Of a stretch of DNA of 64,000 nucleotides, positions 7,579-58,950 are shown in pieces. This DNA is from Nanobdellota archaeon (lineage in GTDB: Archaea; Nanobdellota; Nanobdellia; Woesearchaeales; GW2011-AR4), in the NCBI GenBank assembly GCA_038046385.1, contig JBBSWH010000006.1, positions 125 to 64,124 on the forward strand. Direction: 5' to 3'. A program made the position numbers and the translations under genes. A model generated the notes under the pieces. That model was given only the letters and a program-made list of their open reading frames with translations. It had not been told where the DNA came from and did not search any database. Numbering within the stretch: the first letter of the stretch is position 1; each line of letters opens with the position of its first letter.

Positions 7579-8364
7579 ATGCTTTTGAGCATGGATAGTG
7601 CATGTTTAGTAACTCAAAATTTTAAAGATAATTCTAGTAGAGATTACCCCTATGGGGAGCAGATTATCATAGAAAATAATTTTATGAGGGTGCCAAGATC
7701 AATACACAGGCTTAAATGCCCGGATAAGCTTGATGAAGATTTGGCTTATTTAAGCGGCTATCATTTAGGGGATGGGTATCTTGAAGATTCAAATAAAACG
7801 TTTGAAAGAAGGAGAAAAGCAGGCTATGACATAGTATATGCAGATAGAGACCTTCACCAGATTGAATTAATAGGAAAAATTATTTATGAGGAGTTTGGTT
7901 TAAAATTAAATATATACAAAAGAAAGAATAGCGATGTGTACATAGGAAGGGCAAATTCCTGCAAAGTTCTTCATTGGTTTATGAATAAAAAGATGGGATT
8001 GCCAATAGGAAGAAAACACCATATAGCGATACCGGAATGGATACTAAAAAACGAGAAATTTTTAGCTAATTTTATAAGCGGTTTTTTTGATGCTGAAGCC
8101 GATATTAGTAAGACTACAAATCATGCCTATAAAATCATTAGGATACAATTCACTCAAAAAGATAAATTTGTAATAGATAACTTAAAAGAATTGTTATACT
8201 CTGTTTTTGATATTAGATCCGTTGTAAGCAAAAAGTGGAATCAGAATGCTTATCAACTGCACGTATTAGGCAAGAAAAATGCTGTTAAGTTCAAAGAAAA
8301 AATAGATTTTAGAAATGTTATTAAAAGGCAAAAATTGGAATGTTTTTTACAGGATTTTAAATGA
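7579..8364 (+). CDS. Double-motif LAGLIDADG homing endonuclease (free-standing)
   Basis: Two LAGLIDADG motifs: LAYLSGYHLGDGYL and LANFISGFFDAEADI, about 100 aa apart. TATTTAAAG TATA-like box about 20 nt upstream of the ATG. Confidence 0.8.
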   Translation: MLLSMDSACLVTQNFKDNSSRDYPYGEQIIIENNFMRVPRSIHRLKCPDKLDEDLAYLSGYHLGDGYLEDSNKTFERRRKAGYDIVYADRDLHQIELIGKIIYEEFGLKLNIYKRKNSDVYIGRANSCKVLHWFMNKKMGLPIGRKHHIAIPEWILKNEKFLANFISGFFDAEADISKTTNHAYKIIRIQFTQKDKFVIDNLKELLYSVFDIRSVVSKKWNQNAYQLHVLGKKNAVKFKEKIDFRNVIKRQKLECFLQDFK

Positions 8365-10850: not shown

Positions 10851-10947
10851 TTAATTGATTAAAATCAACTATTATTTAAAAGTTGTGTTTGATTATTGAG
10901 TGGCAAAAGCGAAAGAAAGAAAAAGAAGCTTTCAAAATAATAGATTG

Positions 10948-12228: not shown

Positions 12229-15200
12229 ATGGTTTTCAAGCGCTATATTCACAGGCACGGAAAAAAGCTCGGCCCTTATTATTACGAGAACATGAGGGGG
12301 CCGGACGGAAGCATAAGAACAGTTTACATAGGCACTAATCCGCGCCAGCATCCAAAGCATAAAATAAGGCGCCCTTTGTTTTTCCTGATTGTGGTTCTGC
12401 TTCTTGTGCTTATTCTTGGCGGAATGCTTTTTTTCCTGCAAAACAAGCCATACTTAATAAAAAAAGTGAAGGGGAATGGGGAACTTAATTTTGATGCTGA
12501 CCAAATTCTTCTAAAAGTCCTTGTAAGGTCAAAAGAGTTTATAGAAAAAGATATACGAGTCATGAATACTGGAGCTGATGCAACCGATATAACCATTGAA
12601 GTTGAAGGGGTTTCTGACCTTGTAAAGACAGATTCTGCTTACTTTACGCTTAAGCCCGGCCAGACCAAGATAGCAAGGCTAAATTTTTCTTCTGTTTTTG
12701 TTTCTGAAGGGATAGAACAGCAGCCGGGAGTTTACATCGGAAAGCTTGTGATAAAATCAGAGAAAGGGCAAAAAGAGATTCCGATAGTGATTGAGATTGA
12801 GACAAAAAATGTTCTTTTTGATATGAATCTTAATCCAGTTGCAATTGAAAGAAAGGTAAGGCAAGGCCAGGACACTACAATTGAAGTCAGGCTGTTTAAT
12901 CTTGAAAGTATAGAATCTGAAAATGTTGATGTTGAATATTTTGTCAAGGATATAAGCGGAAACACGATACTTACTGAAAGCGAGACTGTTGTTGTGAAGA
13001 CACAGGCTTCTTTTTTCAAGACAGTATCTATACCAAAAAACCTCAAGCCAGGGCCTTATATTTTTGCAGCCCAGTCAAAATTTGGAAATTCTATAGGCAC
13101 ATCAAGCTATCTGTTTGAAGTTATAGACCTAAATGACCAGGAACCAAGCTTCGTGAATTTCTGCAAGAATAGTGTAATGTGCCTTGGACTGTCGCTTGCA
13201 ACAATCCTGCTTTTGTTCTCGCTTATGGCTTACTTTTACTTTTTTATTGGAGCTTATCTTTATGAAAAAATATCCGGCAAGGAGATGATACAAAAAGGCA
13301 AGCAAAAGAAAATGAAAAACCTTGAGGAAATTGAAGAAACTCCCGAGCTGTTTGGGCGCATGAGAATATGGTCAAGAAAAAGAGATGGGATAAAAGATAA
13401 GGAAGAAAAAAGAAGAGAGCAGGAGCTAATGAAGCCAAGCAGCGAGCTTAAGTCTTTGTACGCCTCTATGAAAATGCTTGATGAAGCTGCCGATAAAAAA
13501 GACTTTGAAAATCTTGACAAGTTCTACATAAAAGCAAAAGACATTTACATGAAACTTAACAATGCAGAGCAGAGGCAGGTCTACAGCAAGCTGATGCAGC
13601 TATACAAGATAAGAAATAATCTTGTTGAGGAAAAAAGAAAAGAAGATGAAAAGCTGCAGGAAAAACAAAAAGAAGCGGAAAGAAAAAGGATTGAGGCTGA
13701 GATAAAAAAGAAGGCTGCTGCAAGGGAAGAAAAGAAAGATGCGTTCAGGGAAAGCGTTCTTGGAATTATGCATGTGATAGGAGTTTACAAGACGCCTGAA
13801 GAAAGAAAACAGATTGCAGTCCTAAAGGAAAAAAAGAGAAAAGAGTCTGAGAAAGCAAGACAGGCTGCTGAAAAGCAACAGAAATTAGAAGAATTAAGAA
13901 AACAAAAAGAGCTCAGAAAACAGGAAGTCCTGCAGCAGAAGAACAGGATTGAAGAGGAAAATAAAAAGCAGAAAGAAGCTGAGATTTTGAGGAAATCGCA
14001 GGAAAAACAGCAGATGGAAGAAGAGAAACGGCGCAAACTGCAGGAAGCAGAAGCCAGAAAAACAGAAGAAGCGCAAAAAAAACTCAGAGAAGAAGAAGAG
14101 ATGAAACATCAGGAGGAGGAAGAAAAAAGAGCTGAAGAGCAGCAGATAGAAGAGGAGCAAAGAAGGAAAGAAGATTTCAAAAGACAAAGAGAGGAAGAAA
14201 ATAATAGGAAAGTTGAAGATACCAGAAGAAAAAAAGAAGAAATTAAAAAACTAAGGGAAGAGCAAAAACAAAAAGAAGATGAGGAAGCAAAAAGAAATGC
14301 AGCTGAAGAAGAGCAGAGGAAGATTGAAGAAAGCTTAAGGAGAAAAAAAGAGAAAGATCTTAGAGAGCAGGAAAAAACAAGAAAAGAAAGGACTGAAAAA
14401 ATAGAGAACCTGAAAAAAGAGCTGAAGAAAAACAGAACATCTGCTGAGAATATTGAATCAAATATTTCTGATATGAAATCAAAAATAAATTCATTGTCAT
14501 CCGATACTTCTGATCATGAATCAAAAGTGCATGAGCTTGAATCGATGCTGCAATCCAAGAAGAAAGAACTTGAAGAGTTGACTAAACATAAAAAATCTGT
14601 CTTGGATGGCCGTTTGAAGAGCCGCAAGTTCAGCATAAAAGACGCAGAACATGATGCTGAAAAGGCCAGGAGAAAAGAACTAAAGTCACAGCTTGCTGAA
14701 AGGGAATCCCAGCTGATGAAAGATCTTGAAGATGATTTGAAATCCTTAAGCGTGGATTCAAGGAAAAAAGCAGAGAGATGGAAAAAGCTGGAAATCAAGG
14801 CAAAGCTGGAAGTCGAGAAGAGCAAGCTGGAAGAAGGGCTTAAGGATTATTCTGCAGAGATTGTTGAGCGCGCAAAGAGGGAAAGCAAGCAGGATAATGA
14901 AATGCTCAAGGAAATAAACAAGAAGCAAAGAGAACTTAAAAGTGAAACAGCTGAATTAAATGCCCAGAAGCAGGAATTATTGTCAAAAAGGAAAAATGCT
15001 CCGGAAATGATTAAGGATTTTGAGGCAAAAATTCAAAATAATACAAAAAAACTGGAAAACCTAAAAAACAAAATAAGATTGATTGAAGATGAACTTGAAA
15101 AAGAAGGCGAGCTGGTTAATAAAACAGCTGAAAAGGGGGGAAAAACCGGATTTTTCAAAAATCTGTTTGCATTAAAAAAGAAAGATTCTGAAAATTCGCT

Positions 15201-15372
15201 TGAAAAATTCCAAATCCTTATGCAAAAAACAAAAGAGGCTGCTTCAAAAGGCGATATGGGCAGCGCAAAGAAGAATTATGTTGTGACAAGGGAAGCCTAT
15301 TTATCATTAAACGCTGCTGAGAAAAAAGAAGTGTATCCTGAGTTTATGGAAGTTTATAAAATGTTAAAGTAG
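12229..15372 (+). CDS. Bitopic/double-pass membrane protein: ectodomain paralogous to 10948..12090 plus a very long cytoplasmic E/R/K-rich helical region
   Basis: 1047 aa. N-terminal KRYIHRHGKKLGPYYYENMRGPDGSIRTVYIG and TM1 LFFLIVVLLLVLILGGMLFF. Beta-sandwich-like repeats (FDMNLNPVAIERKV...PGPYIFAAQSKF). TM2 LGLSLATILLLFSLMAYFYFFIGAYLY. The remaining roughly 700 aa are dominated by E, K and R. Confidence 0.55.
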   Translation: MVFKRYIHRHGKKLGPYYYENMRGPDGSIRTVYIGTNPRQHPKHKIRRPLFFLIVVLLLVLILGGMLFFLQNKPYLIKKVKGNGELNFDADQILLKVLVRSKEFIEKDIRVMNTGADATDITIEVEGVSDLVKTDSAYFTLKPGQTKIARLNFSSVFVSEGIEQQPGVYIGKLVIKSEKGQKEIPIVIEIETKNVLFDMNLNPVAIERKVRQGQDTTIEVRLFNLESIESENVDVEYFVKDISGNTILTESETVVVKTQASFFKTVSIPKNLKPGPYIFAAQSKFGNSIGTSSYLFEVIDLNDQEPSFVNFCKNSVMCLGLSLATILLLFSLMAYFYFFIGAYLYEKISGKEMIQKGKQKKMKNLEEIEETPELFGRMRIWSRKRDGIKDKEEKRREQELMKPSSELKSLYASMKMLDEAADKKDFENLDKFYIKAKDIYMKLNNAEQRQVYSKLMQLYKIRNNLVEEKRKEDEKLQEKQKEAERKRIEAEIKKKAAAREEKKDAFRESVLGIMHVIGVYKTPEERKQIAVLKEKKRKESEKARQAAEKQQKLEELRKQKELRKQEVLQQKNRIEEENKKQKEAEILRKSQEKQQMEEEKRRKLQEAEARKTEEAQKKLREEEEMKHQEEEEKRAEEQQIEEEQRRKEDFKRQREEENNRKVEDTRRKKEEIKKLREEQKQKEDEEAKRNAAEEEQRKIEESLRRKKEKDLREQEKTRKERTEKIENLKKELKKNRTSAENIESNISDMKSKINSLSSDTSDHESKVHELESMLQSKKKELEELTKHKKSVLDGRLKSRKFSIKDAEHDAEKARRKELKSQLAERESQLMKDLEDDLKSLSVDSRKKAERWKKLEIKAKLEVEKSKLEEGLKDYSAEIVERAKRESKQDNEMLKEINKKQRELKSETAELNAQKQELLSKRKNAPEMIKDFEAKIQNNTKKLENLKNKIRLIEDELEKEGELVNKTAEKGGKTGFFKNLFALKKKDSENSLEKFQILMQKTKEAASKGDMGSAKKNYVVTREAYLSLNAAEKKEVYPEFMEVYKMLK

Positions 15373-17187: not shown

Positions 17188-18588
17188 ATGATAAAACCAA
17201 ATGAAGTGAGCGGGGATGAAGTTACCCAAAGAATGTCTCAGTTCAGATTCTATTCTCAAAGGCAGTTTGAAGATCAGACGGGATATTCTGTGCCATTTTT
17301 ATTCAAAACTTCACTGCTCGCATATGCATTAAGCTATGGAAATCTAAATTATTCTAAAAATCATTCCCCGGTCCACTATAATGATACTGCAACATCTCCC
17401 TGGTTCAGGTTTAAAGAAAGCGGATTCTGGCTTGAGCCAAATGCGATGGTTTTGGCAATGACTCATGATTTGCCGGAAGATATAGGAAAAAATTTATCCA
17501 AGAAAAAAAGCACAACTTATTCTCTTTTAGCATCTTATGTTATAATGGATGTAATCGATTCCGTATTAGCCCGTGAAACTGGGATGGATATTGATGCCCT
17601 CCTTGGGCTTGTAACAAACAAAGGGGAAATAATATTCGGGCCTACTGCCAAGCATTTTGAATCAAGAATTGTTCCAGGGAACGCGTCTGAAGTTGATCCT
17701 ATGGATCTTGTAAGAAGGATTAAATCTGATCATGGAGCCATCCCAAGAAAATGGGGGGCTTTTTACAATCACAATATCAATATGGCTTATACAAGTGTAC
17801 TAAAAAGGCTTGAAAGAACTTTGAATGCGCTTTACAGTCCAGGACATGAAGCCGATTTAAGCCATGATGAAAGAAAATATGTTGGAGATACAATAAGAGA
17901 GTTTGTAAGAACTATAGAGTCAAGGAGAACTGGCAATGAAAAACCAAAAGCAAGAGAACTAAAAGGATTTGTTGACTTCGAATTTGAAAAATTAATACAG
18001 AGGGTTTCTTTTGGAAATTTTGCAGAAATAGACCCGCAATTGGTTCTTCCGTCTTCTTCAGAGACTGTTGTCAGGATTAAAACAACACTTTATGGGGAGT
18101 ATGTAGGAGAGATTATGGATGTGTCAAATGCTCAGCAATATGCAGGAACTGACTTGGATCCTGCTGTAGTAAAATGCGCTGATGCAAGGGATACTGCGTC
18201 AAGGCTTGGACCAAATTTAGACAACATAGTCAATCAATTCAGAAAACATACTATAATACTCGAAAAGGGTGTTGAAGCTGTCAATTACCGAAAAGTAGCT
18301 GGCGTTGGCTATGGCAACCTTGACCGTGCATTGATATTTTTACTTGAAACTTTAAATGAAGCATTAGTTAGCAGAAGGGACACCAAAGAAAGCGAAAAAA
18401 TTGAGAATACGCAATACAAAATTGAGTATGAAACACTTGACTATATGGCATGGCTTATGTCGGGATTAAGGACGCGATTAGGAATGCCTCCCGGATTAGA
18501 TGACATGTTTAAAACCATTCCAAATGATGATAAGATTGCTAGAATAGTTCGTGATGCTATGAAACGGGCAAATGGAAGGCCTGATTAA
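17188..18588 (+). CDS. HD-domain protein resembling the RelA/SpoT (p)ppGpp-hydrolase fold, with a large insertion
   Basis: VLAMTHDLPEDIG (compare LLHDvvEDT) and, about 240 aa later, VVKCADARDTASRLG (compare iKLADRlhNmRtl). A candidate upstream His lies in NHSPVHYND. Coordinates taken from the ORF track. Confidence 0.5.
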   Translation: MIKPNEVSGDEVTQRMSQFRFYSQRQFEDQTGYSVPFLFKTSLLAYALSYGNLNYSKNHSPVHYNDTATSPWFRFKESGFWLEPNAMVLAMTHDLPEDIGKNLSKKKSTTYSLLASYVIMDVIDSVLARETGMDIDALLGLVTNKGEIIFGPTAKHFESRIVPGNASEVDPMDLVRRIKSDHGAIPRKWGAFYNHNINMAYTSVLKRLERTLNALYSPGHEADLSHDERKYVGDTIREFVRTIESRRTGNEKPKARELKGFVDFEFEKLIQRVSFGNFAEIDPQLVLPSSSETVVRIKTTLYGEYVGEIMDVSNAQQYAGTDLDPAVVKCADARDTASRLGPNLDNIVNQFRKHTIILEKGVEAVNYRKVAGVGYGNLDRALIFLLETLNEALVSRRDTKESEKIENTQYKIEYETLDYMAWLMSGLRTRLGMPPGLDDMFKTIPNDDKIARIVRDAMKRANGRPD

Positions 18589-34101: not shown

Positions 34102-34728
34102 ATGAAAAGAGGAATTTTTATTGTTGTTGACGGGCTTGACGGCTCCGGAAAAAGCGAGATTGTTAAGATGCTCCACAACTATCTGTTCTCCAAAAACAAA
34201 AAATACAGGATAATGACCACAAGAGAGCCGACTAACGGCAAGTACGGCGCAAAGATAAGGAAAATGCTCGCAAAGGAAAAAGACCCGTTCAGCAGCAGCA
34301 GGAAGCTAGTGGATATGTTTGTCAAAGACAGGGAAGATCATCTTAAAAGAAATGTTGAGCCGTTTCTCAAGACAATAAACGGGCATGAACTGAACATTGC
34401 AATATGCGACAGATATTATTATTCTACAATAGCTTTCCAGGGTGCGCAGGGAATGGACATAAAAATGCTCATTAAGAAAAACAAAAAATTTAGAAAGCCG
34501 GATTTGGCAATAATCCTTGATGTTGATCCTTCTGTTGCCCTGAAAAGGATCGAATACAGAAAAAAGGAAAAATTTGAGCAGCTGGAATTCATGAAAAAAA
34601 TAAGGAATAATTTTTTGAAAATGCCAAAGATGCTAAAAAAGGACAACATCAAGATAATCAATTCATCAAAAAGCCTGAAGAATGTTTTTGCTAATGTAAA
34701 AAAAGAAGTAAATAATGTTCTGGCTTAA
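34102..34728 (+). CDS. tmk: Thymidylate kinase
   Basis: FIVVDGLDGSGKS P-loop, TREP and DRYYYS motifs. Track start 34099 is TTG and ATG follows at 34102. Confidence 0.85.
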   Translation: MKRGIFIVVDGLDGSGKSEIVKMLHNYLFSKNKKYRIMTTREPTNGKYGAKIRKMLAKEKDPFSSSRKLVDMFVKDREDHLKRNVEPFLKTINGHELNIAICDRYYYSTIAFQGAQGMDIKMLIKKNKKFRKPDLAIILDVDPSVALKRIEYRKKEKFEQLEFMKKIRNNFLKMPKMLKKDNIKIINSSKSLKNVFANVKKEVNNVLA

Positions 34729-35099
34729 GGGTTTTTAGGAGCCTGCCTTTGATAATATTCTTTTTCTTTGTGCTCTATTGGCTCTTCCTTGTGCTCAACA
34801 TGATGCACAATGACTTCCTCTTTCTTCGGCATTATTCTTTCCCATCTTAAAATCAAAGTTACAACGATTAATGCTACTGCCATTATAATTGAAGGCCAAA
34901 AAAGGCTATACTGCACAACTGTTTTTTGAATGTTAGGGTATGGATGGCATGCAAAATCCGAGCCGCAGTAGGATTCTGAAGAGCATTCCTTGTTGGAGTT
35001 GCATTCGCGGTTGCTTATGCTGACAAACCACCATGCTGCAAAGAAGATTATTATTGCTATAAGGATGAATGGTATTCCGCTTGCTTTTTTATTCTTCAT
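34725..35099 (-). CDS. Small two-TM protein with a Cys-rich loop
   Basis: TM helix IPFILIAIIIFFAAWWFV, CNSNKECSSESYCGSDFAC, second TM helix, His/Glu-rich tail. Confidence 0.4.
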   Translation of the reverse strand: MKNKKASGIPFILIAIIIFFAAWWFVSISNRECNSNKECSSESYCGSDFACHPYPNIQKTVVQYSLFWPSIIMAVALIVVTLILRWERIMPKKEEVIVHHVEHKEEPIEHKEKEYYQRQAPKNP

Positions 35100-39845: not shown

Positions 39846-40976
39846 TCAAAGACTATAATAATCCTCAAGAACTACCTTGTCAACATCGTCTGTGTTGCGG
39901 ACAGCGTATAGCTTGCCTTCTCCGATTTCAACAAGCTTCTCAGCCAATTCCCGTCCTTTTGCATCCAGATTAATCCCGATAACAGATATAGTTATTCCTT
40001 TGCTTCTTGCCATTGATGCTTCCTCAAGAGTTGCTTTAAACGGCTCGTTGCCTTTTGTCGGCAGAGCGTCCGTTAAAAGTATCAAATGTTTTGTTATGTT
40101 GTCCGATGGAAACAGTTCAATTGCCTTCTTTAATGTTGAAACAATGTCTGTTTCGGTTGAAGCTTTTATTTTAGTTATTTCCTTCAACAAAAGTGTAAAA
40201 TCAAGCGTGGGCTCTATTGCTTCCTTTACTTCCTGCCCGAACACAATTAATCCGACTTTATCCCTATCATTTATTGCCTTGTAAGCGAGCGCAATGCCTG
40301 CTTTCTTGCAAGCGTCTATCTTCTTGCCTTTCATGGAACCTGATGCATCAAGAGCATAAACAATGTAAGTTTGCCCTTTGCTTTGGCGTTCAAAAACTTC
40401 AAGATCTTTCTCGCTTAATTCACTATGGCCGCGCCTTATGGCTAATTTAACAGATTTTTTTATTGAAATGTCCCTATACCTATCTCCTTTTTTGTAAGGC
40501 TTGGAGTTTTCTTTTTCTCCATAAGCAAATTTTTTCTTACTTTGCTTCTCTCCAATGTAGCCTTTTGGAACAATCTTGTCAAGCTCTTCAAAATAAAGAA
40601 CAAGTGAAGCTAATTCAATTCCCTTTTCAGTAATTGAGTTGTCTTTCTGCAAAAAATCATCGTTTTTAAGCTCGTCAATTTTCTTCTGTATTTTTTCTTT
40701 TAATTCTTTCTTGAATTCCGGTATGCCGATGTTCTTCTTTACATAATCCGGCTCGTATCCGGAAATAAGCCTTATGATTGACTCCCCATATATCTGCTTT
40801 GCAAGGCTGTAGTTTTGTACAAGCTGCTCAAACATTAAATCAGGAGTAAATGCGGACATGCCCTGGCTGATAGCCTCGCTTATTAATTTCCCATTATCGA
40901 TAACTTTTTTGTCATTTTCCATGACAGAATGCATAAACTTGTCCTCAAGCTGCTGGAATTGCAGCTTTCCTTCCAT
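39846..40976 (-). CDS. von Willebrand factor A (vWA) domain protein
   Basis: C-terminal vWA domain with MIDAS motif YALDASGSMKG. Immediately downstream of the AAA+ gene. Confidence 0.75.
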   Translation of the reverse strand: MEGKLQFQQLEDKFMHSVMENDKKVIDNGKLISEAISQGMSAFTPDLMFEQLVQNYSLAKQIYGESIIRLISGYEPDYVKKNIGIPEFKKELKEKIQKKIDELKNDDFLQKDNSITEKGIELASLVLYFEELDKIVPKGYIGEKQSKKKFAYGEKENSKPYKKGDRYRDISIKKSVKLAIRRGHSELSEKDLEVFERQSKGQTYIVYALDASGSMKGKKIDACKKAGIALAYKAINDRDKVGLIVFGQEVKEAIEPTLDFTLLLKEITKIKASTETDIVSTLKKAIELFPSDNITKHLILLTDALPTKGNEPFKATLEEASMARSKGITISVIGINLDAKGRELAEKLVEIGEGKLYAVRNTDDVDKVVLEDYYSL

Positions 40977-41016
40977 CTCTTCTCCTTTAGAAATTTCTTT
41001 TAGAGAGATATCTTCG

Positions 41017-42060
41017 CTACCGGTAATCGCCGGAGTTTTGTTCCTGTTCCATCTCGTCTTTTAATTTTGCAGATTCTGCATTTTTGTGGAACTGTTCCTT
41101 TAAGTAATCGGAAACGTCTTGTAAATAACGTACACTTGGCTTTAATCTTATTCTATGGGACAATACTGATGAAACCACATCTTTGATGTCTTCAAATTGA
41201 ACTGTTTTGCGCCCTTTTACTAAAGCATTTGACTGTGACCTTTCATACAATCCAATGCTTGCCCTAACGCTTGGTTTTTTCTCAAGTTTTTCGTCGTTTC
41301 TTAACAATCTTATAAAATATGCAATCAGCGTAAGAAGTTCATCGCTTACTGTTGCAAGCTTTTTTCCTTTTGAAACTATAATTTTTTTTTCTATTTCTAT
41401 GGTTTCAGGATAGTTCATGTAGATTGCATCAAACCTGTCAAGCAAAACATCATTTAATCTTTCTGTTGATGAATCTTCAGGGTTCATTGTTGCTATGAAC
41501 ACGAAATCTATGTCAAAATCAACATCATAAGACCCTATTGTGGCTTTTCGCTCTTCGAGAACCTGCAATAATGCATTTTGCAGCTTTTCCGGGCACCTGT
41601 TTAATTCATCAAAGAACAAAATTCCGTTGTTGGCCTTGAAAATCTTCCCGGGAGTGAATGCCTCGAGTGTTAATGGGCCGAATTTCAATGCTTTTATCGG
41701 ATCTATATCTCCCAAAAGGTCTTCAACGGTCAAATCAGGAGATCCTTGTATTCTTATAAATCGCTTTGCGCCTTCAAGCTTAGCTGTTTTAACGCTTGAA
41801 AGCTGCCTGCAAGAAGGGCAGACTCTGTTTTTTGGAGTGCAGTTGTAGCTGCATCCTTCAATTATTTCCGTATCCGGAAGAAGTTTTGCTATGTTCTTGG
41901 CCAAGGTTGTCTTTCCTATTCCAGGCGGGCCTATTATGAGTATATGCCTTCCCATCATCAAAGCTGATTTTATGCCCTGTTTTGCATATTCCTGGCCGTA
42001 GATGTCTGCAAATACATCCTTTGATGTTGCCAGTTTGTCCCTTAGTTGTTCGCTAATCAT
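41017..42060 (-). CDS. AAA+ ATPase of the MoxR / Mg-chelatase ChlI-like group
   Basis: Walker A GPPGIGKT, Walker B ILFFDELNR, LQVLEER sensor region, and a Cys-rich insert CSYNCTPKNRVCPSC. Confidence 0.8.
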   Translation of the reverse strand: MISEQLRDKLATSKDVFADIYGQEYAKQGIKSALMMGRHILIIGPPGIGKTTLAKNIAKLLPDTEIIEGCSYNCTPKNRVCPSCRQLSSVKTAKLEGAKRFIRIQGSPDLTVEDLLGDIDPIKALKFGPLTLEAFTPGKIFKANNGILFFDELNRCPEKLQNALLQVLEERKATIGSYDVDFDIDFVFIATMNPEDSSTERLNDVLLDRFDAIYMNYPETIEIEKKIIVSKGKKLATVSDELLTLIAYFIRLLRNDEKLEKKPSVRASIGLYERSQSNALVKGRKTVQFEDIKDVVSSVLSHRIRLKPSVRYLQDVSDYLKEQFHKNAESAKLKDEMEQEQNSGDYR

Positions 42061-54600: not shown

Positions 54601-55929
54601 ATGATTGAAATATGCACCATAGGCGGCTATAACGAAGTCGGCAAGAATTCTACTGCGATAAAGGTTGATGATGAAGTTTACCTTATTGATTTGGGATTGC
54701 ACCTTGAGAGCTACATAAAATACCATGAAGATGATGACAGAGTAGTTCCGACTGGAAAAGAGCTTATGAGGGTAGGGGCTGTACCTGACATTTCTGCAAT
54801 TGACGACTGGAAAAAGGAGGTAAAATATGTCATGCCAACGCATGCGCATCTTGACCACGTTGGGGCTGTCCCGTACCTTGCAAACAATTTCAATGCTCCT
54901 GTGATGTGCACGCCATTTACTTCTGAAGTGCTTAAAGGAATACTGGAAGATGATGAAATAAAATTAAACAACCCAATAAAAAGCATGAGCGCAAATTCAA
55001 TGGTTGACGCGTCAAGCAATGTAAAAATTGAGTTTGTCCACACAACTCATTCAACTCCTCAAACCGTGATGATTGCGCTTCACACAAGAAAAGGAGTTAT
55101 ACTTTATGCAAACGACTTCAAGCTCGATATGTTTCCAACGCTCGGAAAAAAGCCAAATTTCAAAAGATTAGAAGAACTTGGAAAAAAAGGTGTTCTGGCA
55201 TTGATATGTGATTCAACTTATGCGCCTTTGCCGGCAAAAACTCCTTCAGAATCTGTTGCGAAGCAGATGCTTAGGGAAGTAATGCTTGACCTTGATTCAA
55301 GAAACAAGCATGTTGTTGTCACGACATTTTCATCCCATATTGCAAGGCTTAACTCTATTGTTGAATTTGGGCAGAAGATGGGAAGAAAAGTTGTTTTCAT
55401 GGGGCGCTCGATGGCAAAATACGTGAAGGCAGCAGAGAACACAGGCATTGCAAACTTTTCCGACAGGGTTGAGATATTAAAGTACAGCAACCAGGTAAAA
55501 AGAAAACTAAAGAAGATTTCAAAGGAAAGGGGAAAATATCTAATGGTTGCAACCGGCCATCAGGGAGAGCCAAGATCTGTTCTTTCAAAGATGATGAACA
55601 AGGAATTAAAGTTCAATTTCATGCCGGAGGATCACATAATCTTTTCTTGCAAAACAATTCCCAGCAAAACAAACATAGAGAACAGGCAAAAGCTTGAAGC
55701 GAGCCTAAAAGCGCAGAATGTCAGGATTTTCAAAGATGTTCACGTAAGCGGGCATGCTGCAAGGGAAGATTTGAGGGAATTGGTAAAAATACTAAAGCCA
55801 AAGAACATAATCCCTGCGCACGGAGAGCCGAAGATGCTTTCATCCATGGCGGACTTGGCAGAAGAGCTTGGATACAAAAGAGGGAATAATGTCCATATTA
55901 TGAAGAATGCCCAAAGAATAAAAATATAA
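54601..55929 (+). CDS. rnj: Archaeal RNase J (metallo-beta-lactamase / beta-CASP ribonuclease)
   Basis: MIEICTIGGYNEVGKNSTAI N-terminus, HAHLDHVGAVP (HxHxDH), and later beta-CASP His/Asp motifs (HVSGHA); 442 aa. Confidence 0.85.
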   Translation: MIEICTIGGYNEVGKNSTAIKVDDEVYLIDLGLHLESYIKYHEDDDRVVPTGKELMRVGAVPDISAIDDWKKEVKYVMPTHAHLDHVGAVPYLANNFNAPVMCTPFTSEVLKGILEDDEIKLNNPIKSMSANSMVDASSNVKIEFVHTTHSTPQTVMIALHTRKGVILYANDFKLDMFPTLGKKPNFKRLEELGKKGVLALICDSTYAPLPAKTPSESVAKQMLREVMLDLDSRNKHVVVTTFSSHIARLNSIVEFGQKMGRKVVFMGRSMAKYVKAAENTGIANFSDRVEILKYSNQVKRKLKKISKERGKYLMVATGHQGEPRSVLSKMMNKELKFNFMPEDHIIFSCKTIPSKTNIENRQKLEASLKAQNVRIFKDVHVSGHAAREDLRELVKILKPKNIIPAHGEPKMLSSMADLAEELGYKRGNNVHIMKNAQRIKI

Positions 55930-56020
55930 ATAAATTATGTTGATTTTCTTCGAGGAATAAATGCCATTAAATTTAAAGTTTAGCAATCTATTTAAAACGC
56001 TTAAATAATTTAATGACAAA

Positions 56021-57139
56021 ATGTGTTTTCCAAAAAAAAAATCTCAGGCAGCACTTGAATTCTTGACAACGTATGGGTGGGCTTTTTTGATCATATTGAT
56101 TATGATAGGCGCCTTGTCTTATTTTGGAATATTGAGCCCGAGCAAACTTCTGCCAAACAGGTGCAACTTTGGGCCGGAAATCGGGTGTGTGGATTATTCT
56201 ATTTCAAGCAACGGGCTGCAATTAAGGTTGAAAAACAACGCAGGTTCCCCTATTATAGTTGATGCATTAAATATGACGACTGCAAATTCTATTCAATTAG
56301 GCTGCGCATCCAATATAATTGGATCTGTGTGGCGCACAGGGGAAACAAAAGACGTCCCGATAATATGTGGATTTGCAAATTTCGGCCTTGTTTCCGGCGA
56401 AAAGTCAAAATTAAACTTAAGAATGACATATCATCAGGCACAAAGCTCGAGCCTGTTCGGCAAGGATGCAAGCGGGGAAGTTCTTGCCAATGTGCAATAC
56501 GGATCTGTGGCCGGAACTCAATCTGTGCCGTTGGGGGCTTCCTGCAAGCAAATTTTGGATGGGGGCATGTCAAACGGCAACGGGACATACACCATAAACC
56601 CGGGAAACGGCAATATACAAGTATATTGTGACATGACAAATGACGACGGTGGGTGGACATTGGGGCTTGTGTGCAAAGCTTCAAATAATGTATGCTGGAA
56701 TACTGCTGCAATAGGCTCTGTTACAAACCCAAATTCTGCAACAAGTGCAAAGCTGTCTGATGCTGACATAAAATCGATAATGACAAGTGGGGACAATTAC
56801 ACCAGAACGTCGTGGTATCAGGTGCCAACTATGTATGACGTGCCAGGGACTTACACTGCTGCAGTCTATGACAGGATAACTAATCCAAATATTTGGTCGT
56901 CTACGGGCTGCGGTTCGGCAGGCAATGAATTTTACTACAAAAGTTCTTATGCAGCAGGATGGGGATCTGCAATTTATACTGCAAGCACCGGATGCTCATG
57001 CGCATCAAACGGATGGTCAAATACAAGACAGGATTCATGCGGGATTGACTGGTATGCCAGCTGCGAATCTGGCCCATCAATGAGCCATTGCTGTGCTTGT
57101 GCTGTTGAAAGGGCAGATATAGTAGTTTGGTTAAGATAG
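56021..57139 (+). CDS. Type IV pilin-like (class III signal peptide) protein with a fibrinogen-like C-terminal head
   Basis: KKKSQAALEFLTTYGWAFLIILIMIGAL (prepilin-peptidase-type signal plus hydrophobic helix). C-terminal SCKQILDGGMSNGNGTYTINPGNGNIQVYCDMTNDDGGWTL resembles the fibrinogen-related-domain signature. Cys-rich end. Confidence 0.65.
   Translation: MCFPKKKSQAALEFLTTYGWAFLIILIMIGALSYFGILSPSKLLPNRCNFGPEIGCVDYSISSNGLQLRLKNNAGSPIIVDALNMTTANSIQLGCASNIIGSVWRTGETKDVPIICGFANFGLVSGEKSKLNLRMTYHQAQSSSLFGKDASGEVLANVQYGSVAGTQSVPLGASCKQILDGGMSNGNGTYTINPGNGNIQVYCDMTNDDGGWTLGLVCKASNNVCWNTAAIGSVTNPNSATSAKLSDADIKSIMTSGDNYTRTSWYQVPTMYDVPGTYTAAVYDRITNPNIWSSTGCGSAGNEFYYKSSYAAGWGSAIYTASTGCSCASNGWSNTRQDSCGIDWYASCESGPSMSHCCACAVERADIVVWLR
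56034..56197 (+). repeat. 164-bp perfect direct repeat, copy 1 (5' module of the pilin-like genes)
   Basis: Base-for-base identical to 57171-57334 by manual comparison (AAAAAAAATCTCAGGCAGCAC...GGTGTGTGGATTAT). Confidence 0.9.
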
Positions 57140-57166
57140 TTGTTAGAAATTAAAATATGAAAAGAA

Positions 57167-58126
57167 ATGGAAAAAAAATCTCAGGCAGCACTTGAATTCT
57201 TGACAACGTATGGGTGGGCTTTTTTGATCATATTGATTATGATAGGCGCCTTGTCTTATTTTGGAATATTGAGCCCGAGCAAACTTCTGCCAAACAGGTG
57301 CAACTTTGGGCCGGAAATCGGGTGTGTGGATTATATGATTATTGGTAATGGAATACGCTTAAGGCTTAAAAATAATGTTGGCGAAGCTATAATTTTAGAT
57401 TATTTAAACGCGTCAACTAAAAAACAGCAAATAATATGCGGCTCTTCGGTTATAGGCACTGCATGGCGCCAAGGAGGTATAATAGATATCCCGGTAGTTT
57501 GTGATCTTACCAATTCTGGAATAATCCAAGGTGAAAAAAATAAAATTGATTTGATGATGACTTATCATCCTATAAGAAGTGGGCCTAATTATGCCAAAGA
57601 TGTTCAGGGTGAGGTTTATTCTGGCTCAATGAGCAGCTTTTTTCTTGGGGGTCTTCTGCAAAACAACGATTTCGAAGTTGACTCTGGAGTAAACTTTGGC
57701 GGAGGGGACACAATTGCCGGCAATAACATACCTGATGGATGGGGCTGTGGCAATCAGGGTGGCACTGGATCATGGACATTAAATCCCGATTCTCATAGTG
57801 GTGGCAAGTCATTAATGCTTACAGCCGGCACAAGCTTTTGGGTTGCATGCTACCAACAGTACATACCCGTTTACGCTGGCAGAACTTATAAAGCATTTGG
57901 ATATTATAAATGTCCTGCTGGCCAATCTGTTCAAATGTTTTTTGGGGATGATATAACTTATGGATTAAATGCTGCTGGTGGTTCTTGGCTTTGTGATGGA
58001 ACATGGCAAGTCATGAGTGTTACTTTTACTCCACCTAACCCAGTAAGAATGGCGTTATATGTGTATGGTCAAGATAGCCCTGGCGGGGCTAAGTATGATG
58101 ATATATCCGTATCACTGCTGTCTTAA
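57167..58126 (+). CDS. Type IV pilin-like (class III signal peptide) protein with a carbohydrate-binding-module-like C-terminal head
   Basis: Same first ~55 aa as 56021..57139. C-terminal LQNNDFEVDSG...PDGWGCGNQGGTGSWTLNPDSHSGGKSLMLTAG...YAGRTYKAFGYYK resembles CBM4/9-type jelly-roll domains. Confidence 0.6.
   Translation: MEKKSQAALEFLTTYGWAFLIILIMIGALSYFGILSPSKLLPNRCNFGPEIGCVDYMIIGNGIRLRLKNNVGEAIILDYLNASTKKQQIICGSSVIGTAWRQGGIIDIPVVCDLTNSGIIQGEKNKIDLMMTYHPIRSGPNYAKDVQGEVYSGSMSSFFLGGLLQNNDFEVDSGVNFGGGDTIAGNNIPDGWGCGNQGGTGSWTLNPDSHSGGKSLMLTAGTSFWVACYQQYIPVYAGRTYKAFGYYKCPAGQSVQMFFGDDITYGLNAAGGSWLCDGTWQVMSVTFTPPNPVRMALYVYGQDSPGGAKYDDISVSLLS
57171..57334 (+). repeat. 164-bp perfect direct repeat, copy 2
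   Basis: Identical to 56034-56197. Confidence 0.9.
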
Positions 58127-58203
58127 TTGAACTGTTGCTATTAAAACCATAAAGCATTTAAATAGGGATAGATAACTTTTATTTATATTTGGGGGTTAAA
58201 TAA

Positions 58204-58950
58204 ATGAGACTTACTTTAGCAGAACCGAGCTATCTGAAAGAGAGCATTTCAATAATTTCTGATTTAGTCAATGAAGCTAGGTTTAAGATAACACCTAACG
58301 CAATAGAGCTTGTTGCAATGGATCCGGCAAACGTTGCCATGGTTGTTTTCAAGCTGCTGAGCAGCTGCTTTGTTGAGTATGATGTCAAAAAAGACGTTGA
58401 GCTTGGCATAAATCTTGCAAATTTAAAGCAGGTTTTGAGAAGGGCTTCTCCAAAGGACATGCTGACCCTTGAATTGGATGAGGATAACAGGCTGAAAATA
58501 ACGCTTAAGAGCAGCACAACAAGGACATTCAACCTTCCAATCATAGAGCTTGAGGAAAAAGACCAGAAAGTTCCTGATCTGAAGTTTGCAGTTGTCATAA
58601 AGACTTCATCTTCTTTATTAAATGAGTCAATTGCAGATGTTGATGTTGTCGGAGAGAGTGTTGCGTTCATAGCAGAACCTAAGAAGTTTATACTACAGGC
58701 AGAAGGCGACCTTAACAGGGCAAGGATAGAGATAAAAGATGATGAAGTTACAAAAATATCTGTTACCGGCGATGAAAAGCACAAGGCGAAATACAGCATT
58801 GAGTACCTTAAGAAGATGATAAACGGATCAAAATTAAGCAACGAAGTTTCTATTTATTTCAGCAAAGATTATCCTTTAAAGCTGGAGTACAAGACAGTTG
58901 ACAAAGTAATGCTTTCATTCATTCTTGCTCCAAGAGTGGAGAACGATTAA
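58204..58950 (+). CDS. pcn: DNA polymerase sliding clamp (PCNA)
   Basis: 248 aa. N-terminus LAEPSYLKESISIISDLVNEARFKITPNAIELVAMDPANVAMV and overall two-domain pattern typical of archaeal PCNA. Confidence 0.9.
   Translation: MRLTLAEPSYLKESISIISDLVNEARFKITPNAIELVAMDPANVAMVVFKLLSSCFVEYDVKKDVELGINLANLKQVLRRASPKDMLTLELDEDNRLKITLKSSTTRTFNLPIIELEEKDQKVPDLKFAVVIKTSSSLLNESIADVDVVGESVAFIAEPKKFILQAEGDLNRARIEIKDDEVTKISVTGDEKHKAKYSIEYLKKMINGSKLSNEVSIYFSKDYPLKLEYKTVDKVMLSFILAPRVEND

What the first reader, a model, noticed from the sequence alone, without database searches (positions are those of the whole stretch)
56021..58126. Tandem pilin-like genes with a 164-bp identical 5' module and swapped lectin-like heads (fibrinogen-like versus CBM-like)
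Seen:
- 56034-56197 and 57171-57334 are identical at the nucleotide level. They encode KKSQAALEFLTTYGWAFLIILIMIGALSYFGILSPSKLLPNRCNFGPEIGCVDY, a class III signal peptide, hydrophobic helix and first strands.
- Similarity then drops to moderate protein level, then to none.
- Head 1 contains SCKQILDGGMSNGNGTYTINPGNGNIQVYCDMTNDDGGWTL (about 56540-56660). This closely mimics the signature of the fibrinogen-related domain A-subdomain (C-x3-L-x2-G...G-x-Y-x-I-x-P...VYCDM-x4-GGWT). A Cys-rich C-terminus follows.
- Head 2 (about 57650-58123) has NDFE...W...SGGKSL...GRTYK, as in CBM4/9-type carbohydrate-binding modules.

Established knowledge: archaeal type IV pilins share such N-termini. Fibrinogen-related domains are mainly animal glycan-binding lectins, with scattered prokaryotic look-alikes.

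Inference: a pilus or surface-fibre system displaying alternative glycan-binding tips, kept homogenised at the 5' end by gene conversion. It is attractive as a host-attachment device for a symbiotic archaeon. No assembly ATPase, platform or prepilin peptidase gene is in the window.
Basis: partly seen in the sequence, partly recalled or inferred. Interest (0 to 1): 0.7.

Follow-up and report, generated by a model that had tools for sequence, protein, structure and literature searches.

The report
Archaeal pilin genes with swapped lectin heads
Two neighbouring genes in a tiny, probably symbiotic archaeon encode pilus subunits with identical front ends and different sugar-binding-type heads, one fibrinogen-like and one CBM-like, so they are a likely and testable cell-attachment device.

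Summary
ORF1 (56021-57139, 372 aa) and ORF2 (57167-58126, 319 aa) share an exact 164-nt block, then drop to about 46% protein identity, then to none.

**The repeat is real.**
- An independent, indel-rich assembly spans both copies.
- All 52 degenerate codons inside the block are identical, against 19 of 42 just after it. This points to recent 5' gene conversion.

**The shared N-module is a pilin.**
- It has a class III-type leader (KKS|QAALEF).
- It is predicted to fold as a 26-30-residue helix plus a beta-sandwich.
- It matches no Pfam family.
- In 30 of 83 related Woesearchaeota/Nanoarchaeota loci, headless paralogues sit directly after a T2SSE ATPase and two T2SSF platform genes.

**The heads are lectin-type.**
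- Head 1 matches the curated YCDxxxxGGGW model. Its 50 listed Foldseek PDB hits, the top of the ranking, are all fibrinogen-related domains or intelectin-type lectins.
- Head 2 passes Pfam CBM_4_9.
- Across the family, at least 18 head types sit on this module.

**Still inferred.** Glycan binding, tip location and host attachment were not tested. No pilus machinery lies in the window.

**Verdict.** This is an archaeal version of bacterial "modular pilins", a new variant of a known kind.

The parts
55986..56012 (+). AT-rich stretch (ATTTAAAACGCTTAAATAATTTAA) 10-35 nt upstream of the ORF1 start. It is a possible archaeal TATA-type promoter for a short-leader or leaderless transcript.
   Evidence: Read from the sequence. 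This is inference only. The bacterial promoter scan does not apply to archaea.
56021..57139 (+). ORF1, 372 aa: a modular pilin with a fibrinogen-related-type head.
   Evidence: ORF list. AF2 model pLDDT 86.3, pTM 0.73. Called as a gene in the public record.
56021..56044 (+). Predicted class III leader MCFPKKKS. Predicted cleavage is after Ser8, giving a mature N-terminus QAALEFL... with Gln at +1 and Glu at +5.
   Evidence: Sequence. Q, E, F and L of this motif are invariant in 42 family members. Cleavage itself is inferred.
56034..56197 (+). Copy 1 of the exact 164-nt repeat. It covers the end of the leader, helix alpha-1 and the first conserved Cys-Cys loop (residues 5-59).
56045..56497 (+). 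Mature pilin module of ORF1: alpha-1 helix (residues 9-34) and beta-sandwich (residues 47-159).
   Evidence: AF2 secondary structure. N-module HMM E=7e-62.
56540..57136 (+). Head 1: a fibrinogen-related-type domain with a Cys-rich C-terminal part (residues 174-372). The YCDxxxxGGGW A-subdomain signature lies at 56540-56662.
   Evidence: NF040941 at 50.8 bits. Intelectin-1 4wmq E=3.4e-5. Foldseek PDB best hit FGL1 7tz2 E=2.6e-5, and all 50 listed hits are fibrinogen-related domains or intelectin-type lectins. Cyanophage fibrinogen-C proteins in BFVD.
57140..57166 (+). 27-nt intergenic spacer, too short for a separate TATA-type promoter. The two genes are probably co-transcribed.
   Evidence: Sequence. 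Inference.
57167..58126 (+). ORF2, 319 aa: a modular pilin with a CBM4/9-type head.
   Evidence: ORF list. Called as a gene in the public record.
57171..57334 (+). Copy 2 of the exact 164-nt repeat.
57167..57625 (+). Pilin module of ORF2: leader MEKKS, helix residues 2-31, beta-sandwich residues 44-153.
   Evidence: AF2 model of residues 1-156, pLDDT 92.8. N-module HMM E=1.8e-64. Weak whole-length Foldseek matches to archaeal type IV pilins 8fk7 and 8q30.
57653..58078 (+). Head 2: CBM_4_9-type carbohydrate-binding module (residues 163-304).
   Evidence: Pfam PF02018 E=3e-7, 31.3 bits against a cut-off of 25.9. Weak PDB sequence hit to the laminarinase 16A CBM4, 1gui, E=0.038.

Best explanation
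ORF1 and ORF2 are two "modular" type IV pilins of a DPANN (Woesearchaeota-like) archaeon. Each has three parts:

- a short basic leader, predicted to be cut by a class III signal peptidase after Ser, leaving Gln at +1 and Glu at +5;
- a pilin module, made of a hydrophobic alpha-1 helix and a disulfide-containing beta-sandwich;
- after a short linker, a lectin-type head.

The pilin module belongs to a large family with no Pfam model. The headless members of that family are the filament subunits of a type IV filament system with one ATPase and two platform proteins.

The two proteins are proposed to enter that filament through their alpha-1 helix. They would act as minor subunits, most likely at or near the tip, and display either a fibrinogen-related-type head or a CBM4/9-type head. 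Each head would bind a different glycan on a partner cell or surface.

The 5' 164 nt encode exactly the parts that must fit the peptidase, the platform and the filament core. This stretch was recently homogenised between the two old paralogues by gene conversion.

**Shown:** the anatomy, the folds, the family context and the conversion.
**Inferred:** processing, incorporation into the filament, tip position, glycan binding and a role in host attachment.
For: **Repeat and conversion**
- The identity is exact over 164 nt.
- Same codon in 52/52 positions inside the block against 19/42 outside.
- Outside the block the two beta-domains are not each other's nearest relatives. ORF2 ranks 25th for ORF1, at 46% against 56% for the best foreign match. 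ORF1 ranks 15th for ORF2.
- An independent ENA contig (L002) is collinear over 3.1 kb and carries both copies.
- Similar 5'-only identity occurs in L048 (140 nt), L038 (83 nt) and L007 (62 nt). L050 shares a 427-nt exact match covering most of the aligned gene.

**Pilin module**
- The motif KS|QAALEFLTTYGW plus a hydrophobic helix is conserved.
- AF2 gives helix 2-31 plus a beta-sandwich at pLDDT 92.8.
- Whole-length but weak Foldseek matches reach the Pyrobaculum calidifontis (8fk7) and Sulfolobus acidocaldarius AAP (8q30) pilins.
- At least 573 relatives occur in GTDB species genomes. Nearly all of the 80 loci fetched are labelled Woesearchaeota, Nanoarchaeota or Nanoarchaeia, or carry a suspect 'uncultured Methanosarcinales' label.
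- 30/83 loci show the same-strand order: T2SSE ATPase (PF00437, 7.8e-39), then T2SSF, then T2SSF, then 2-5 N-module genes.

**Heads**
- Head 1: NF040941, intelectin and tenascin PDB hits, and all 50 listed Foldseek PDB hits being fibrinogen-related domains or intelectin-type lectins.
- Head 2: CBM_4_9.

**Modularity**
- Of 149 proteins with a complete N-module, 67 are headless and 75 carry heads of more than 100 aa, falling in at least 18 sequence clusters. These include LamG_3, FReD, CBM_4_9, FG-GAP and beta-helix.
- The same Cys-rich FReD-type head, about 55% identical, sits on Pfam Pilin_N-type N-termini in Aenigmatarchaeota.

**Precedents in the literature**
- Bacterial modular pilins PilB and PilC (PMC8179133, PMC9934059).
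- Lectin-like minor pilins in Saccharibacteria (PMC11623550).
- Archaeal TFF "System 1" in DPANN, with two platform genes and many pilins (bioRxiv 10.64898/2026.04.22.720090).
Against: - No ATPase, platform or prepilin peptidase gene lies in the 64-kb window or in the next 10 kb. The rest of the genome could not be read.
- The N-module hits no Pfam family, including the pilin models, and no PDB sequence.
- Its Foldseek matches to archaeal pilins are not significant (E 7e-3 to 2.5e-2) and are mixed with generic Ig-like folds.
- Head 1 matches fibrinogen domains with TM only 0.41-0.46. Its C-terminal third is modelled with low confidence (pLDDT 52-68). No ligand-site residues could be aligned.
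- ORF1 itself is below the Pfam Fibrinogen_C cut-off.
- The closest FReD-pilin orthologues (L003, L006) are single genes without a tandem partner, so the pair is not a conserved unit.
Confidence: 0.65

Rival explanations
1. Surface-anchored lectins rather than pilus subunits. The class III-type N-terminus would hold the proteins in the membrane or in a short bindosome-like or pseudopilus structure. The heads would capture substrates or bind surfaces at the cell envelope and would not sit on long pili.
For: Archaeal binding proteins with class III signal peptides and varied C-terminal domains are described as bindosome components (bioRxiv 10.64898/2026.04.22.720090; PMC4858521). Both genes stand apart from any machinery, between RNase J and PCNA. 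Bulky heads are hard to pack along a filament.
Against: The N-module is not just a signal and helix. It is a complete roughly 150-aa pilin fold shared with headless proteins encoded in tandem behind the ATPase and platform genes. The heads are lectin/CBM-type, not ABC-transporter solute-binding domains.
Confidence: 0.2
2. The proteins are pilus-displayed, but they capture free or particulate polysaccharide for feeding or for attachment to detritus. Recognition of a host cell is not their role.
For: CBM4/9 modules classically bind glucans and xylans, and the weak PDB match is to the laminarinase CBM4. Nothing in the window links the genes to a host.
Against: No catalytic glycoside hydrolase domain is attached or adjacent. 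The head repertoire is typical of adhesins and receptor-binding proteins: FReD, LamG, discoidin, FG-GAP and beta-helix. The nearest viral folds are cyanophage tail-fibre-like proteins. This rival differs from the main explanation only in the target.
Confidence: 0.2
3. The 164-nt identity is an assembly artefact, such as a chimeric join or a consensus of two strains, and the two genes do not really share it.
For: The block is about one short-read length. Several ENA assemblies hold only fragments of these genes: P0114, P0186 and P0187.
Against: An independent contig (ERZ1300416 NODE_69) runs collinearly through RNase J, ORF1, ORF2 and PCNA. It contains both copies, identical to each other. The P0114 fragment is explained by indels in that contig, not by a contig end. 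Comparable 5' identity occurs in unrelated assemblies.
Confidence: 0.03
4. The identity reflects only strong purifying selection on the N-terminus, or a very recent duplication of the whole gene. No gene conversion is involved.
For: The first 55 residues are 83-89% identical even between genomes.
Against: Selection on the protein does not fix synonymous sites: 52/52 inside the block against 19/42 outside. A recent whole-gene duplication is excluded because the adjoining beta-domains are only about 46% identical and each is closer to genes of other organisms.
Confidence: 0.03

Closest known systems
Bacterial modular type IV pilins: Streptococcus sanguinis PilB (vWA module) and PilC (concanavalin-like lectin module); PMC8179133, PMC9934059
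   Same: The architecture matches: a class III leader, a small pilin module, a short linker and a grafted binding module. Lectin-type modules occur in both, including PF13385 in this family. Many alternative modules sit on one kind of carrier. The proposed role is adhesion from the filament tip.
   Different: The pilin module here is archaeal, with no IPR012902/N-methylation signature. The 2021 census searched only for that signature, and the word 'archaea' does not occur in that paper. The carrier is an undescribed family with no Pfam model. No fibrinogen-related head was seen in the passages of that paper read here. The paralogues are linked by 5' gene conversion.
Archaeal type IV filament "System 1" (Epd-type) pili of methanogens and DPANN; bioRxiv 10.64898/2026.04.22.720090, PMC4858521
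   Same: There is one ATPase, two platform genes, many pilins and stand-alone pilin genes elsewhere in the genome. The leader has Gln at +1 (from my own knowledge of EppA/DUF361 substrates). [quoted passage not shown]
   Different: The major Epd pilin is said to lack a globular domain, whereas this family has a full beta-sandwich. Membership of System 1 was not tested by ATPase phylogeny. The head repertoire and the FReD head are not described there.
Lectin-like minor pilins PilX1 and PilX2 of Saccharibacteria (TM7x); PMC11623550
   Same: An ultrasmall episymbiont uses type IV pili whose minor pilins carry lectin-like C-terminal domains. The authors suggest a glycan-binding mechanism for host binding. 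This is the closest ecological analogue.
   Different: The pilins and machinery there are bacterial, and the lectin folds differ (L-type and PLL-type). There is experimental support there and none here.
Fibrinogen-related domains and intelectins (ficolins, tachylectin 5A, FIBCD1, intelectin-1/XEEL); NCBIfam NF040941 "fibrinogen-like YCDxxxxGGGW domain"
   Same: The A-subdomain signature is present. The overall fold is recognised by Foldseek with probability 1.0. The best PDB sequence hit is intelectin-1. NCBI already gives this name to homologous heads in Aenigmatarchaeota MAGs.
   Different: TM-scores are only about 0.45. The C-terminal third is Cys-rich and divergent. The Ca2+ and ligand-site residues could not be aligned. 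The domain is fused to a pilin rather than to collagen-like or coiled-coil stalks.
Neisseria pilE/pilS pilin gene conversion
   Same: Gene conversion occurs between pilin paralogues, with a constant 5' part and variable 3' parts.
   Different: Both copies here are complete genes with their own start codons. The converted tract is the constant part, not the variable one. There are no silent cassettes, and no switching has been shown.

Membership tests
Archaeal type IV pilin (class III signal peptide protein) | A short basic leader, [KR][GAS] before the cleavage site, followed by about 20 hydrophobic residues | tested here: met
   The leaders are MCFPKKKS|QAALEFLTTYGWAFLIILIMIGALSYFG and MEKKS|QAAL.... 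The motif is invariant across 42 members.
Archaeal type IV pilin (class III signal peptide protein) | A match to a curated pilin model (Pfam Pilin_N PF07790 or Class_IIIsignal PF04021) | tested here: not met
   No such hit for ORF1, ORF2 or any of the 42 family members at E<=1. There is no PDB sequence hit either.
Archaeal type IV pilin (class III signal peptide protein) | An N-terminal alpha-1 helix followed by an Ig-like beta-sandwich, similar to solved archaeal pilins | tested here: inconclusive
   The AF2 model (pLDDT 92.8) has exactly this layout. Foldseek matches to 8fk7 (E=7.3e-3, TMt 0.53, 150 columns) and 8q30 (E=2.5e-2) cover the whole length, but none reaches E<1e-3.
Archaeal type IV pilin (class III signal peptide protein) | Genes associated with a T2SSE-type ATPase and a T2SSF/FlaJ-type platform | tested here: met
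   Met for the family: 30/83 loci show ATPase, then T2SSF, then T2SSF, then 2-5 N-module genes on one strand. Not met for ORF1 and ORF2 themselves, which stand alone.
Archaeal type IV pilin (class III signal peptide protein) | Cleavage by a prepilin peptidase and assembly into a filament | not testable with these tools
   No peptidase gene is in the window.
Fibrinogen-related domain (FReD) | The A-subdomain signature C...G.Y.I.P...VYCDM....GGWT | tested here: met
   NF040941 at 50.8 bits against a cut-off of 30. S174, C175, Y190, Y202, C203, D204, M205, G210, G211, W212 and T213 are invariant in 32 homologues.
Fibrinogen-related domain (FReD) | A Pfam Fibrinogen_C (PF00147) score above the gathering cut-off | tested here: not met
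   ORF1 scores 18.7 bits against a cut-off of 22, and only profile positions 4-45 of 221 match. Several homologues pass at 24-29 bits, again on the A-subdomain only.
Fibrinogen-related domain (FReD) | The overall three-subdomain fold | tested here: inconclusive
   All 50 listed Foldseek PDB hits are fibrinogen-related domains or intelectin-type lectins, with probability 1.0, E down to 2.6e-5 and 230-250 aligned columns. However, TMt is 0.41-0.46 and rmsd 7-9 A.
Fibrinogen-related domain (FReD) | The Ca2+ site and ligand pocket of the P subdomain | not tested
   Sequence alignments stop at residue 274 at the latest. The model is of low confidence at residues 320-350.
Intelectin (X-type lectin) | Homology beyond the FReD-like part, including the Ca2+-bound diol-binding site | tested here: inconclusive
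   Intelectin-1 is the best PDB sequence hit (E=3.4e-5), but only query residues 165-274 align to chain residues 24-135. XEEL ranks 33rd by fold.
CBM_4_9 carbohydrate-binding module | A Pfam PF02018 score above the gathering cut-off over most of the profile | tested here: met
   31.3 bits against a cut-off of 25.9, E=3e-7, profile positions 3-134 of 136.
CBM_4_9 carbohydrate-binding module | A beta-jelly-roll fold and sugar binding | not tested
The only other evidence is a weak PDB sequence hit to the CBM4 of laminarinase 16A (E=0.038).
Modular pilins (sensu Raynaud et al. 2021) | A pilin module joined by a short linker to a module not specific to pilus biology | tested here: met
   In the AF2 model the pilin module ends at residue 159, a linker of lower confidence follows (block 161-170, pLDDT 71), and the head starts at about residue 174. 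At least 18 head clusters sit on one carrier.
Modular pilins (sensu Raynaud et al. 2021) | The bacterial IPR012902 N-terminal methylation motif used to define the set | not tested
   InterPro is not available here. The leader is of the archaeal type, so membership holds in the architectural sense only.
pilE/pilS-type antigenic variation system | One expression locus plus promoterless, 5'-truncated silent cassettes | tested here: not met
   Both genes are complete, with start codon, leader and stop.

The most novel reading that the evidence does not exclude
The identical 5' modules may be more than a by-product of conversion. They could be the working substrate of a head-switching system. Recombination between them could delete or duplicate a head where the repeats are direct, as here. 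It could invert the segment between two genes where the repeats are inverted, as in the L007 pair. Recombination with other stand-alone modular pilin genes would also be possible. A lineage could then change which lectin head its single pilus machinery displays, and so track variable host surface glycans. This would be an archaeal counterpart of adhesin or pilin phase variation.
Probability: 0.12. Interest if true: 0.8.

Novelty: new variant of a known kind. Interest (0 to 1): 0.55.

Why it matters
Woesearchaeota and other DPANN archaea are abundant, almost uncultured and presumed to live attached to other cells. How they recognise partners is unknown.

- **Candidates for experiment.** This locus and its family offer concrete recognition molecules: one conserved pilin carrier, widespread in Woesearchaeota/Nanoarchaeota genomes and lacking a Pfam model, displaying at least 18 interchangeable binding heads. 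The heads are small, soluble, disulfide-containing domains. They could be expressed and put on glycan arrays, or used to stain candidate hosts. That makes the question of host specificity directly testable.
- **Modular pilins in archaea.** The finding extends the "modular pilin" principle from bacteria to archaea.
- **A prokaryotic role for the fibrinogen-type fold.** It shows a fibrinogen/intelectin-type recognition fold, best known from animal innate immunity, mounted on prokaryotic pili and also on cyanophage fibre-like proteins.
- **How carrier and cargo co-evolve.** The 5' gene conversion illustrates how the carrier stays compatible with the machinery while the cargo diverges.

Tried and rejected
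- **Pfam, NCBIfam and PDB searches of the N-module.** Both single-sequence and profile searches gave only noise, such as COQ9_N and DUF4064. The pilin assignment therefore rests on motif, model and gene context.
- **Tandem partners beside the closest FReD-pilin orthologues (L003, L006).** None was found. The downstream 169-aa gene of L003 is an unrelated coiled-coil protein, and there are no repeats. The pair is not a conserved operon.
- **The P0020/P0033 contig.** No DNA was available, so only protein-level N-terminal identity (56/58) could be shown.
- **Bacterial sigma-70 and terminator scan.** It does not apply to an archaeon and is not above the shuffle expectation.
- **Search for pilus machinery.** Pfam scans of the 30 largest window ORFs, a GxGD-motif regex, and a walk 10 kb past the window end found nothing. 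The SPP/presenilin-type protease at 5830-6795 belongs to a different family and was not counted as a prepilin peptidase.
- **Other class III-like N-termini in the window.** Only one doubtful small protein turned up (34725-35099).
- **GC content as a sign of horizontal transfer of head 1.** It is the GC maximum of the window (46%). However, another secreted protein is similar, so amino-acid composition explains it as well.
- **The 252-aa fragment P0114 read as a contig break at the repeat.** Rejected: the contig continues through the locus, and the gene call is truncated by indels.


Full report
**1. The observation**

ORF1 is 56021-57139 (372 aa) and ORF2 is 57167-58126 (319 aa), on the same strand and 27 nt apart. 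The exact identity block is 56034-56197 = 57171-57334, 164 nt. It starts in the Lys codons of the leader and ends after ...GCVDY. Downstream, ungapped nucleotide identity drops to about 55-60% for about 100 nt and then to background. At protein level the first 150 residues are 65% identical and the rest is unrelated. No other ORF in the window has this N-terminus.

**2. Real, and not explained by constraint**

The window is the start of contig CAYHVO010000001.1 (382 kb) of GCA_964360275.1. A separate ENA assembly, ERZ1300416 NODE_69 (67 kb), aligns collinearly with 55500-58600 at 98.7% identity. Its differences are mostly indels, and it contains both repeat copies, identical to each other. The tandem arrangement and the repeat are therefore not a collapse or a chimera of one assembly. 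I infer from the indel pattern and the very low k-mer coverage that the ENA contig is supported by long reads. This is inference.

Inside the block, all 52 identical residues encoded by degenerate codons use the same codon. In residues 61-154 only 19 of 42 do (P about 1e-18). Outside the block the beta-domains are not each other's nearest relatives. ORF2 ranks 25th among ORF1's relatives, at 46% against 56% for the best foreign protein. ORF1 ranks 15th for ORF2, whose best match is P0029, a CBM-headed protein from another sample. Old paralogues with a freshly identical 5' end indicate gene conversion or an equivalent recombination.

The same pattern recurs in other genomes. There are 140 identical nt at the same position in L048, 83 in L038, and 62 in L007, where the two head-bearing genes lie on opposite strands 3 kb apart. 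L050 shares a 427-nt exact match, but there identity is about 100% across almost the whole aligned gene, so it looks like a near-whole-gene duplicate. The median over 107 paralogue pairs is 18 nt.

**3. The shared N-module is a pilin**

The N-termini read MCFPKKKS|QAALEFLTTYGWAFLIILIMIGALSYFG and MEKKS|QAAL.... Each is a short basic leader with Lys at -2 and Ser at -1, then Gln at +1, Glu at +5 and a hydrophobic stretch. From my own knowledge, this is the pattern of class III signal peptides of the DUF361/EppA type. Q, E, F, L, T, Y, W and two Cys are invariant in 42 family members.

AlphaFold models are confident: ORF1 has pLDDT 86.3 and the N-module alone 92.8. They show a 26-30-residue N-terminal helix followed by a seven- to eight-strand beta-sandwich.

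The module matches no Pfam, NCBIfam or PDB sequence. Foldseek gives only weak hits. Among generic Ig-like sandwiches are two whole-length matches to solved archaeal type IV pili: Pyrobaculum calidifontis 8fk7 (E=7.3e-3, TMt 0.53) and the Sulfolobus acidocaldarius AAP filament 8q30 (E=2.5e-2).

Gene context gives the decisive evidence. A scan of GTDB species genomes found at least 573 relatives. Nearly all of the 80 loci fetched are labelled Woesearchaeota, Nanoarchaeota or Nanoarchaeia; many others carry the label "uncultured Methanosarcinales", which I suspect is a placeholder. Most loci carry two to five tandem headless genes of about 160-190 aa. In 30 of 83 loci these follow, on the same strand, this order:

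- a 157-aa protein;
- a TPR or coiled-coil protein;
- a T2SSE ATPase (PF00437, E=7.8e-39);
- two T2SSF platform genes (PF00482, 4.5e-11 and 5.4e-10).

One ATPase, two platform genes and many pilins fits the description of archaeal TFF "System 1", reported for methanogens and DPANN (bioRxiv 10.64898/2026.04.22.720090). I did not test that assignment phylogenetically.

**4. The heads**

*Head 1.* Residues 174-214 pass the curated NCBIfam model "fibrinogen-like YCDxxxxGGGW domain" (50.8 bits against a cut-off of 30). ORF1 stays just under the Pfam Fibrinogen_C cut-off (18.7 against 22). The best PDB sequence matches are intelectin-1 (E=3.4e-5, query residues 165-274), tenascin, XEEL, FIBCD1, angiopoietins and ficolins.

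All 50 listed Foldseek PDB hits of the ORF1 model are fibrinogen-related domains or intelectin-type lectins. They include FGL1, ANGPTL4, ficolins and tachylectin 5A, plus the intelectin XEEL. Probability is 1.0, E goes down to 2.6e-5, and 230-250 columns align. TM normalised by the target is only 0.41-0.46. The Cys-rich C-terminal third (SCASNGWSN...DSCG...HCCAC...ERADIVVW.R) is conserved among homologues but modelled with low confidence. So the fold class is supported, while the ligand site is not assessed.

A search of 1.84 billion cluster representatives found the full-length head in only a few dozen clusters (28 at E<=1e-30). The A-subdomain alone is common and occurs 4-15 times in giant proteins. 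In the viral structure library the closest folds are cyanophage "fibrinogen C-terminal domain" and tail-fibre-like proteins. This is another microbial cell-recognition setting.

*Head 2.* Residues 163-304 pass Pfam CBM_4_9 over nearly the whole profile (31.3 bits against 25.9). There is a weak PDB hit to the CBM4 of laminarinase 16A. Head 2 is only about 25% identical to the CBM heads of P0029 and P0043.

**5. A family of one carrier and many heads**

Of the 191 proteins retrieved, 149 have a complete N-module. Of these, 67 are headless and 75 carry heads of more than 100 aa, in at least 18 sequence clusters: 23 LamG_3, 20 FReD-type, 10 of an unknown type, and then CBM_4_9, FG-GAP, beta-helix/NosD and others. 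There is also a 1021-aa protein with Big_7 and two LamG_3 domains.

Conversely, the same Cys-rich FReD-type head (about 55% identical) is found on a different carrier in Aenigmatarchaeota and others. There the N-termini are of the KG[IL]S type and hit Pfam Pilin_N, "Archaeal type IV pilin, N-terminal": P0037 at the cut-off, P0021 and P0024 just below. One head on two unrelated pilin carriers, and many heads on one carrier, is what one expects if the head is cargo displayed by a filament.

Head-bearing genes are mostly stand-alone among housekeeping genes. One genome can hold several: GCA_964548665.1 has at least four.

**6. Context in the window**

The pair lies between an RNase J-family ribonuclease and PCNA. 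The organism is an archaeon with 37.5% GC. It encodes PCNA, aIF5B, Trm1, the CCA-adding enzyme, Hjc, the tRNA-splicing endonuclease and Hef.

No T2SSE, T2SSF or prepilin peptidase is encoded by the 30 largest ORFs or in the 10 kb beyond the window. The 27-nt spacer suggests co-transcription from an AT-rich, TATA-like stretch 10-35 nt upstream of ORF1. This is inference.

**7. How it most likely works**

- *Shown:* two complete genes; a pilin-type carrier belonging to a family tied to TFF machinery; lectin-type heads; recent 5' conversion.
- *Inferred:* the leaders are removed by a class III peptidase; alpha-1 inserts into the core of a filament built from headless paralogues encoded elsewhere; the bulky heads restrict these subunits to low copy number and probably to the tip, as argued for bacterial modular pilins (PMC8179133); and the heads bind different glycans on a partner cell.

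The converted tract covers exactly the leader, alpha-1 and the first disulfide loop. These are the parts that must match the peptidase, the platform and the neighbouring subunits. Homogenisation there and divergence elsewhere makes functional sense.

An ecological analogue exists in Saccharibacteria. There, type IV pili contribute to host binding, and lectin-like minor pilins and host cell-wall modification led the authors to suggest glycan-binding mechanisms (PMC11623550).

**8. Rivals**

- *A bindosome-like or membrane-anchored arrangement without long pili.* This is not excluded (about 0.2).
- *Polysaccharide capture rather than host recognition.* This is a variant of the same mechanism with a different target (about 0.2).
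- *An assembly artefact.* Essentially excluded.
- *Pure purifying selection or a recent whole-gene duplication.* Essentially excluded.

**9. Novelty and limits**

Four things are already known:

- modular pilins with lectin modules in bacteria;
- archaeal class III proteins with binding domains;
- the NCBI name for the YCDxxxxGGGW domain, which already labels homologues in Aenigmatarchaeota;
- gene conversion between pilin genes.

I did not find the following in the papers searched:

- this Woesearchaeota/Nanoarchaeota pilin carrier family, which lacks a Pfam model;
- its wide head repertoire;
- the fibrinogen-type head on archaeal pilins;
- the recurrent 5'-only conversion.

The literature library is incomplete, so prior description cannot be excluded. 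I rate it a new variant of a known kind, of moderate interest. It gives a testable handle on how DPANN archaea recognise partners.

Four limits remain. The rest of the genome is unread. Head 2 is not modelled. The ligand sites are not assessed. Function is entirely inferred.

Noticed in passing
window 5830-6795 (+): A 321-aa presenilin/signal-peptide-peptidase-type GxGD aspartyl protease (Pfam SPP, E=6e-19). It is in the same protease clan as prepilin peptidases but a different family, and it is the only such protease seen in the window.
   Followed up: partly
window 7579-8364 (+): A 261-aa ORF with a LAGLIDADG_3 homing-endonuclease-like domain (E=9e-15). It stands free between an unannotated gene and an AIR-synthase-related gene.
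   Followed up: no
window 34725-35099 (-): A 124-aa Cys-rich protein whose N-terminus, MKNKKASGIPFILIAIIIFFAAWWF, resembles a class III signal or a plain membrane anchor. It is the only other candidate of this kind in the window.
   Followed up: no
window 39846-42060 (-): An adjacent MoxR-type AAA ATPase (41017-42060) and VWA-domain protein (39846-40976). VWA/BatA genes also lie beside the two modular pilin genes on the 14-kb contig carrying P0020 and P0033.
   Followed up: no
window 2685-4871 (-), 12229-15372 (+), 17188-18588 (+), 10900-12090 (+): Three large ORFs (728, 1047 and 466 aa) have no Pfam match at all. A 396-aa ORF has a HYDIN/VesB-type Ig-like domain and the second-highest GC in the window. 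These may be further surface proteins.
   Followed up: no
window 56401-57000: The head of ORF1 is the most GC-rich 600-nt stretch of the window (46% against a mean of 37.5%, sd 3.3%). The cause could be amino-acid composition or foreign origin; this is undecided.
   Followed up: partly
L002 8715-8875 and 9838-9998: In the independent ENA contig both repeat copies carry the same two differences from the window: a T-run one base shorter, and GGGCCGG changed to GGTAGG. This is either the same systematic read error at the same sequence, or concerted evolution of both copies in a second strain.
   Followed up: partly
L007 9959-11416 (+) and 14336-15514 (-); L077 5953-7542 and 8708-9628: One other MAG (GCA_964548665.1) holds at least four head-bearing pilins of this family, with an unknown head, LamG_3, beta-helix/NosD and another unknown head. 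Two of them face each other in inverted orientation and share a 62-nt exact 5' match.
   Followed up: partly
L082 5911-6459 and 7102-7650; L050 3543-4040 and 4015-4737: These are fully or almost fully identical duplicate headless pilin genes within one locus (570-nt and 427-nt exact matches). Whole-gene duplication or conversion therefore also occurs in the family.
   Followed up: no
proteins P0192, P0202, P0207, P0216: Giant proteins of 3000-4500 aa contain 9-15 tandem copies of the YCDxxxxGGGW A-subdomain alone. This is a very different use of the same motif.
   Followed up: no
L008-L087, record titles: Dozens of MAGs that carry this Woesearchaeota-type pilin operon are titled 'uncultured Methanosarcinales archaeon' (binchicken and SRP co-assemblies). 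The label looks like a placeholder or a misassignment.
   Followed up: no
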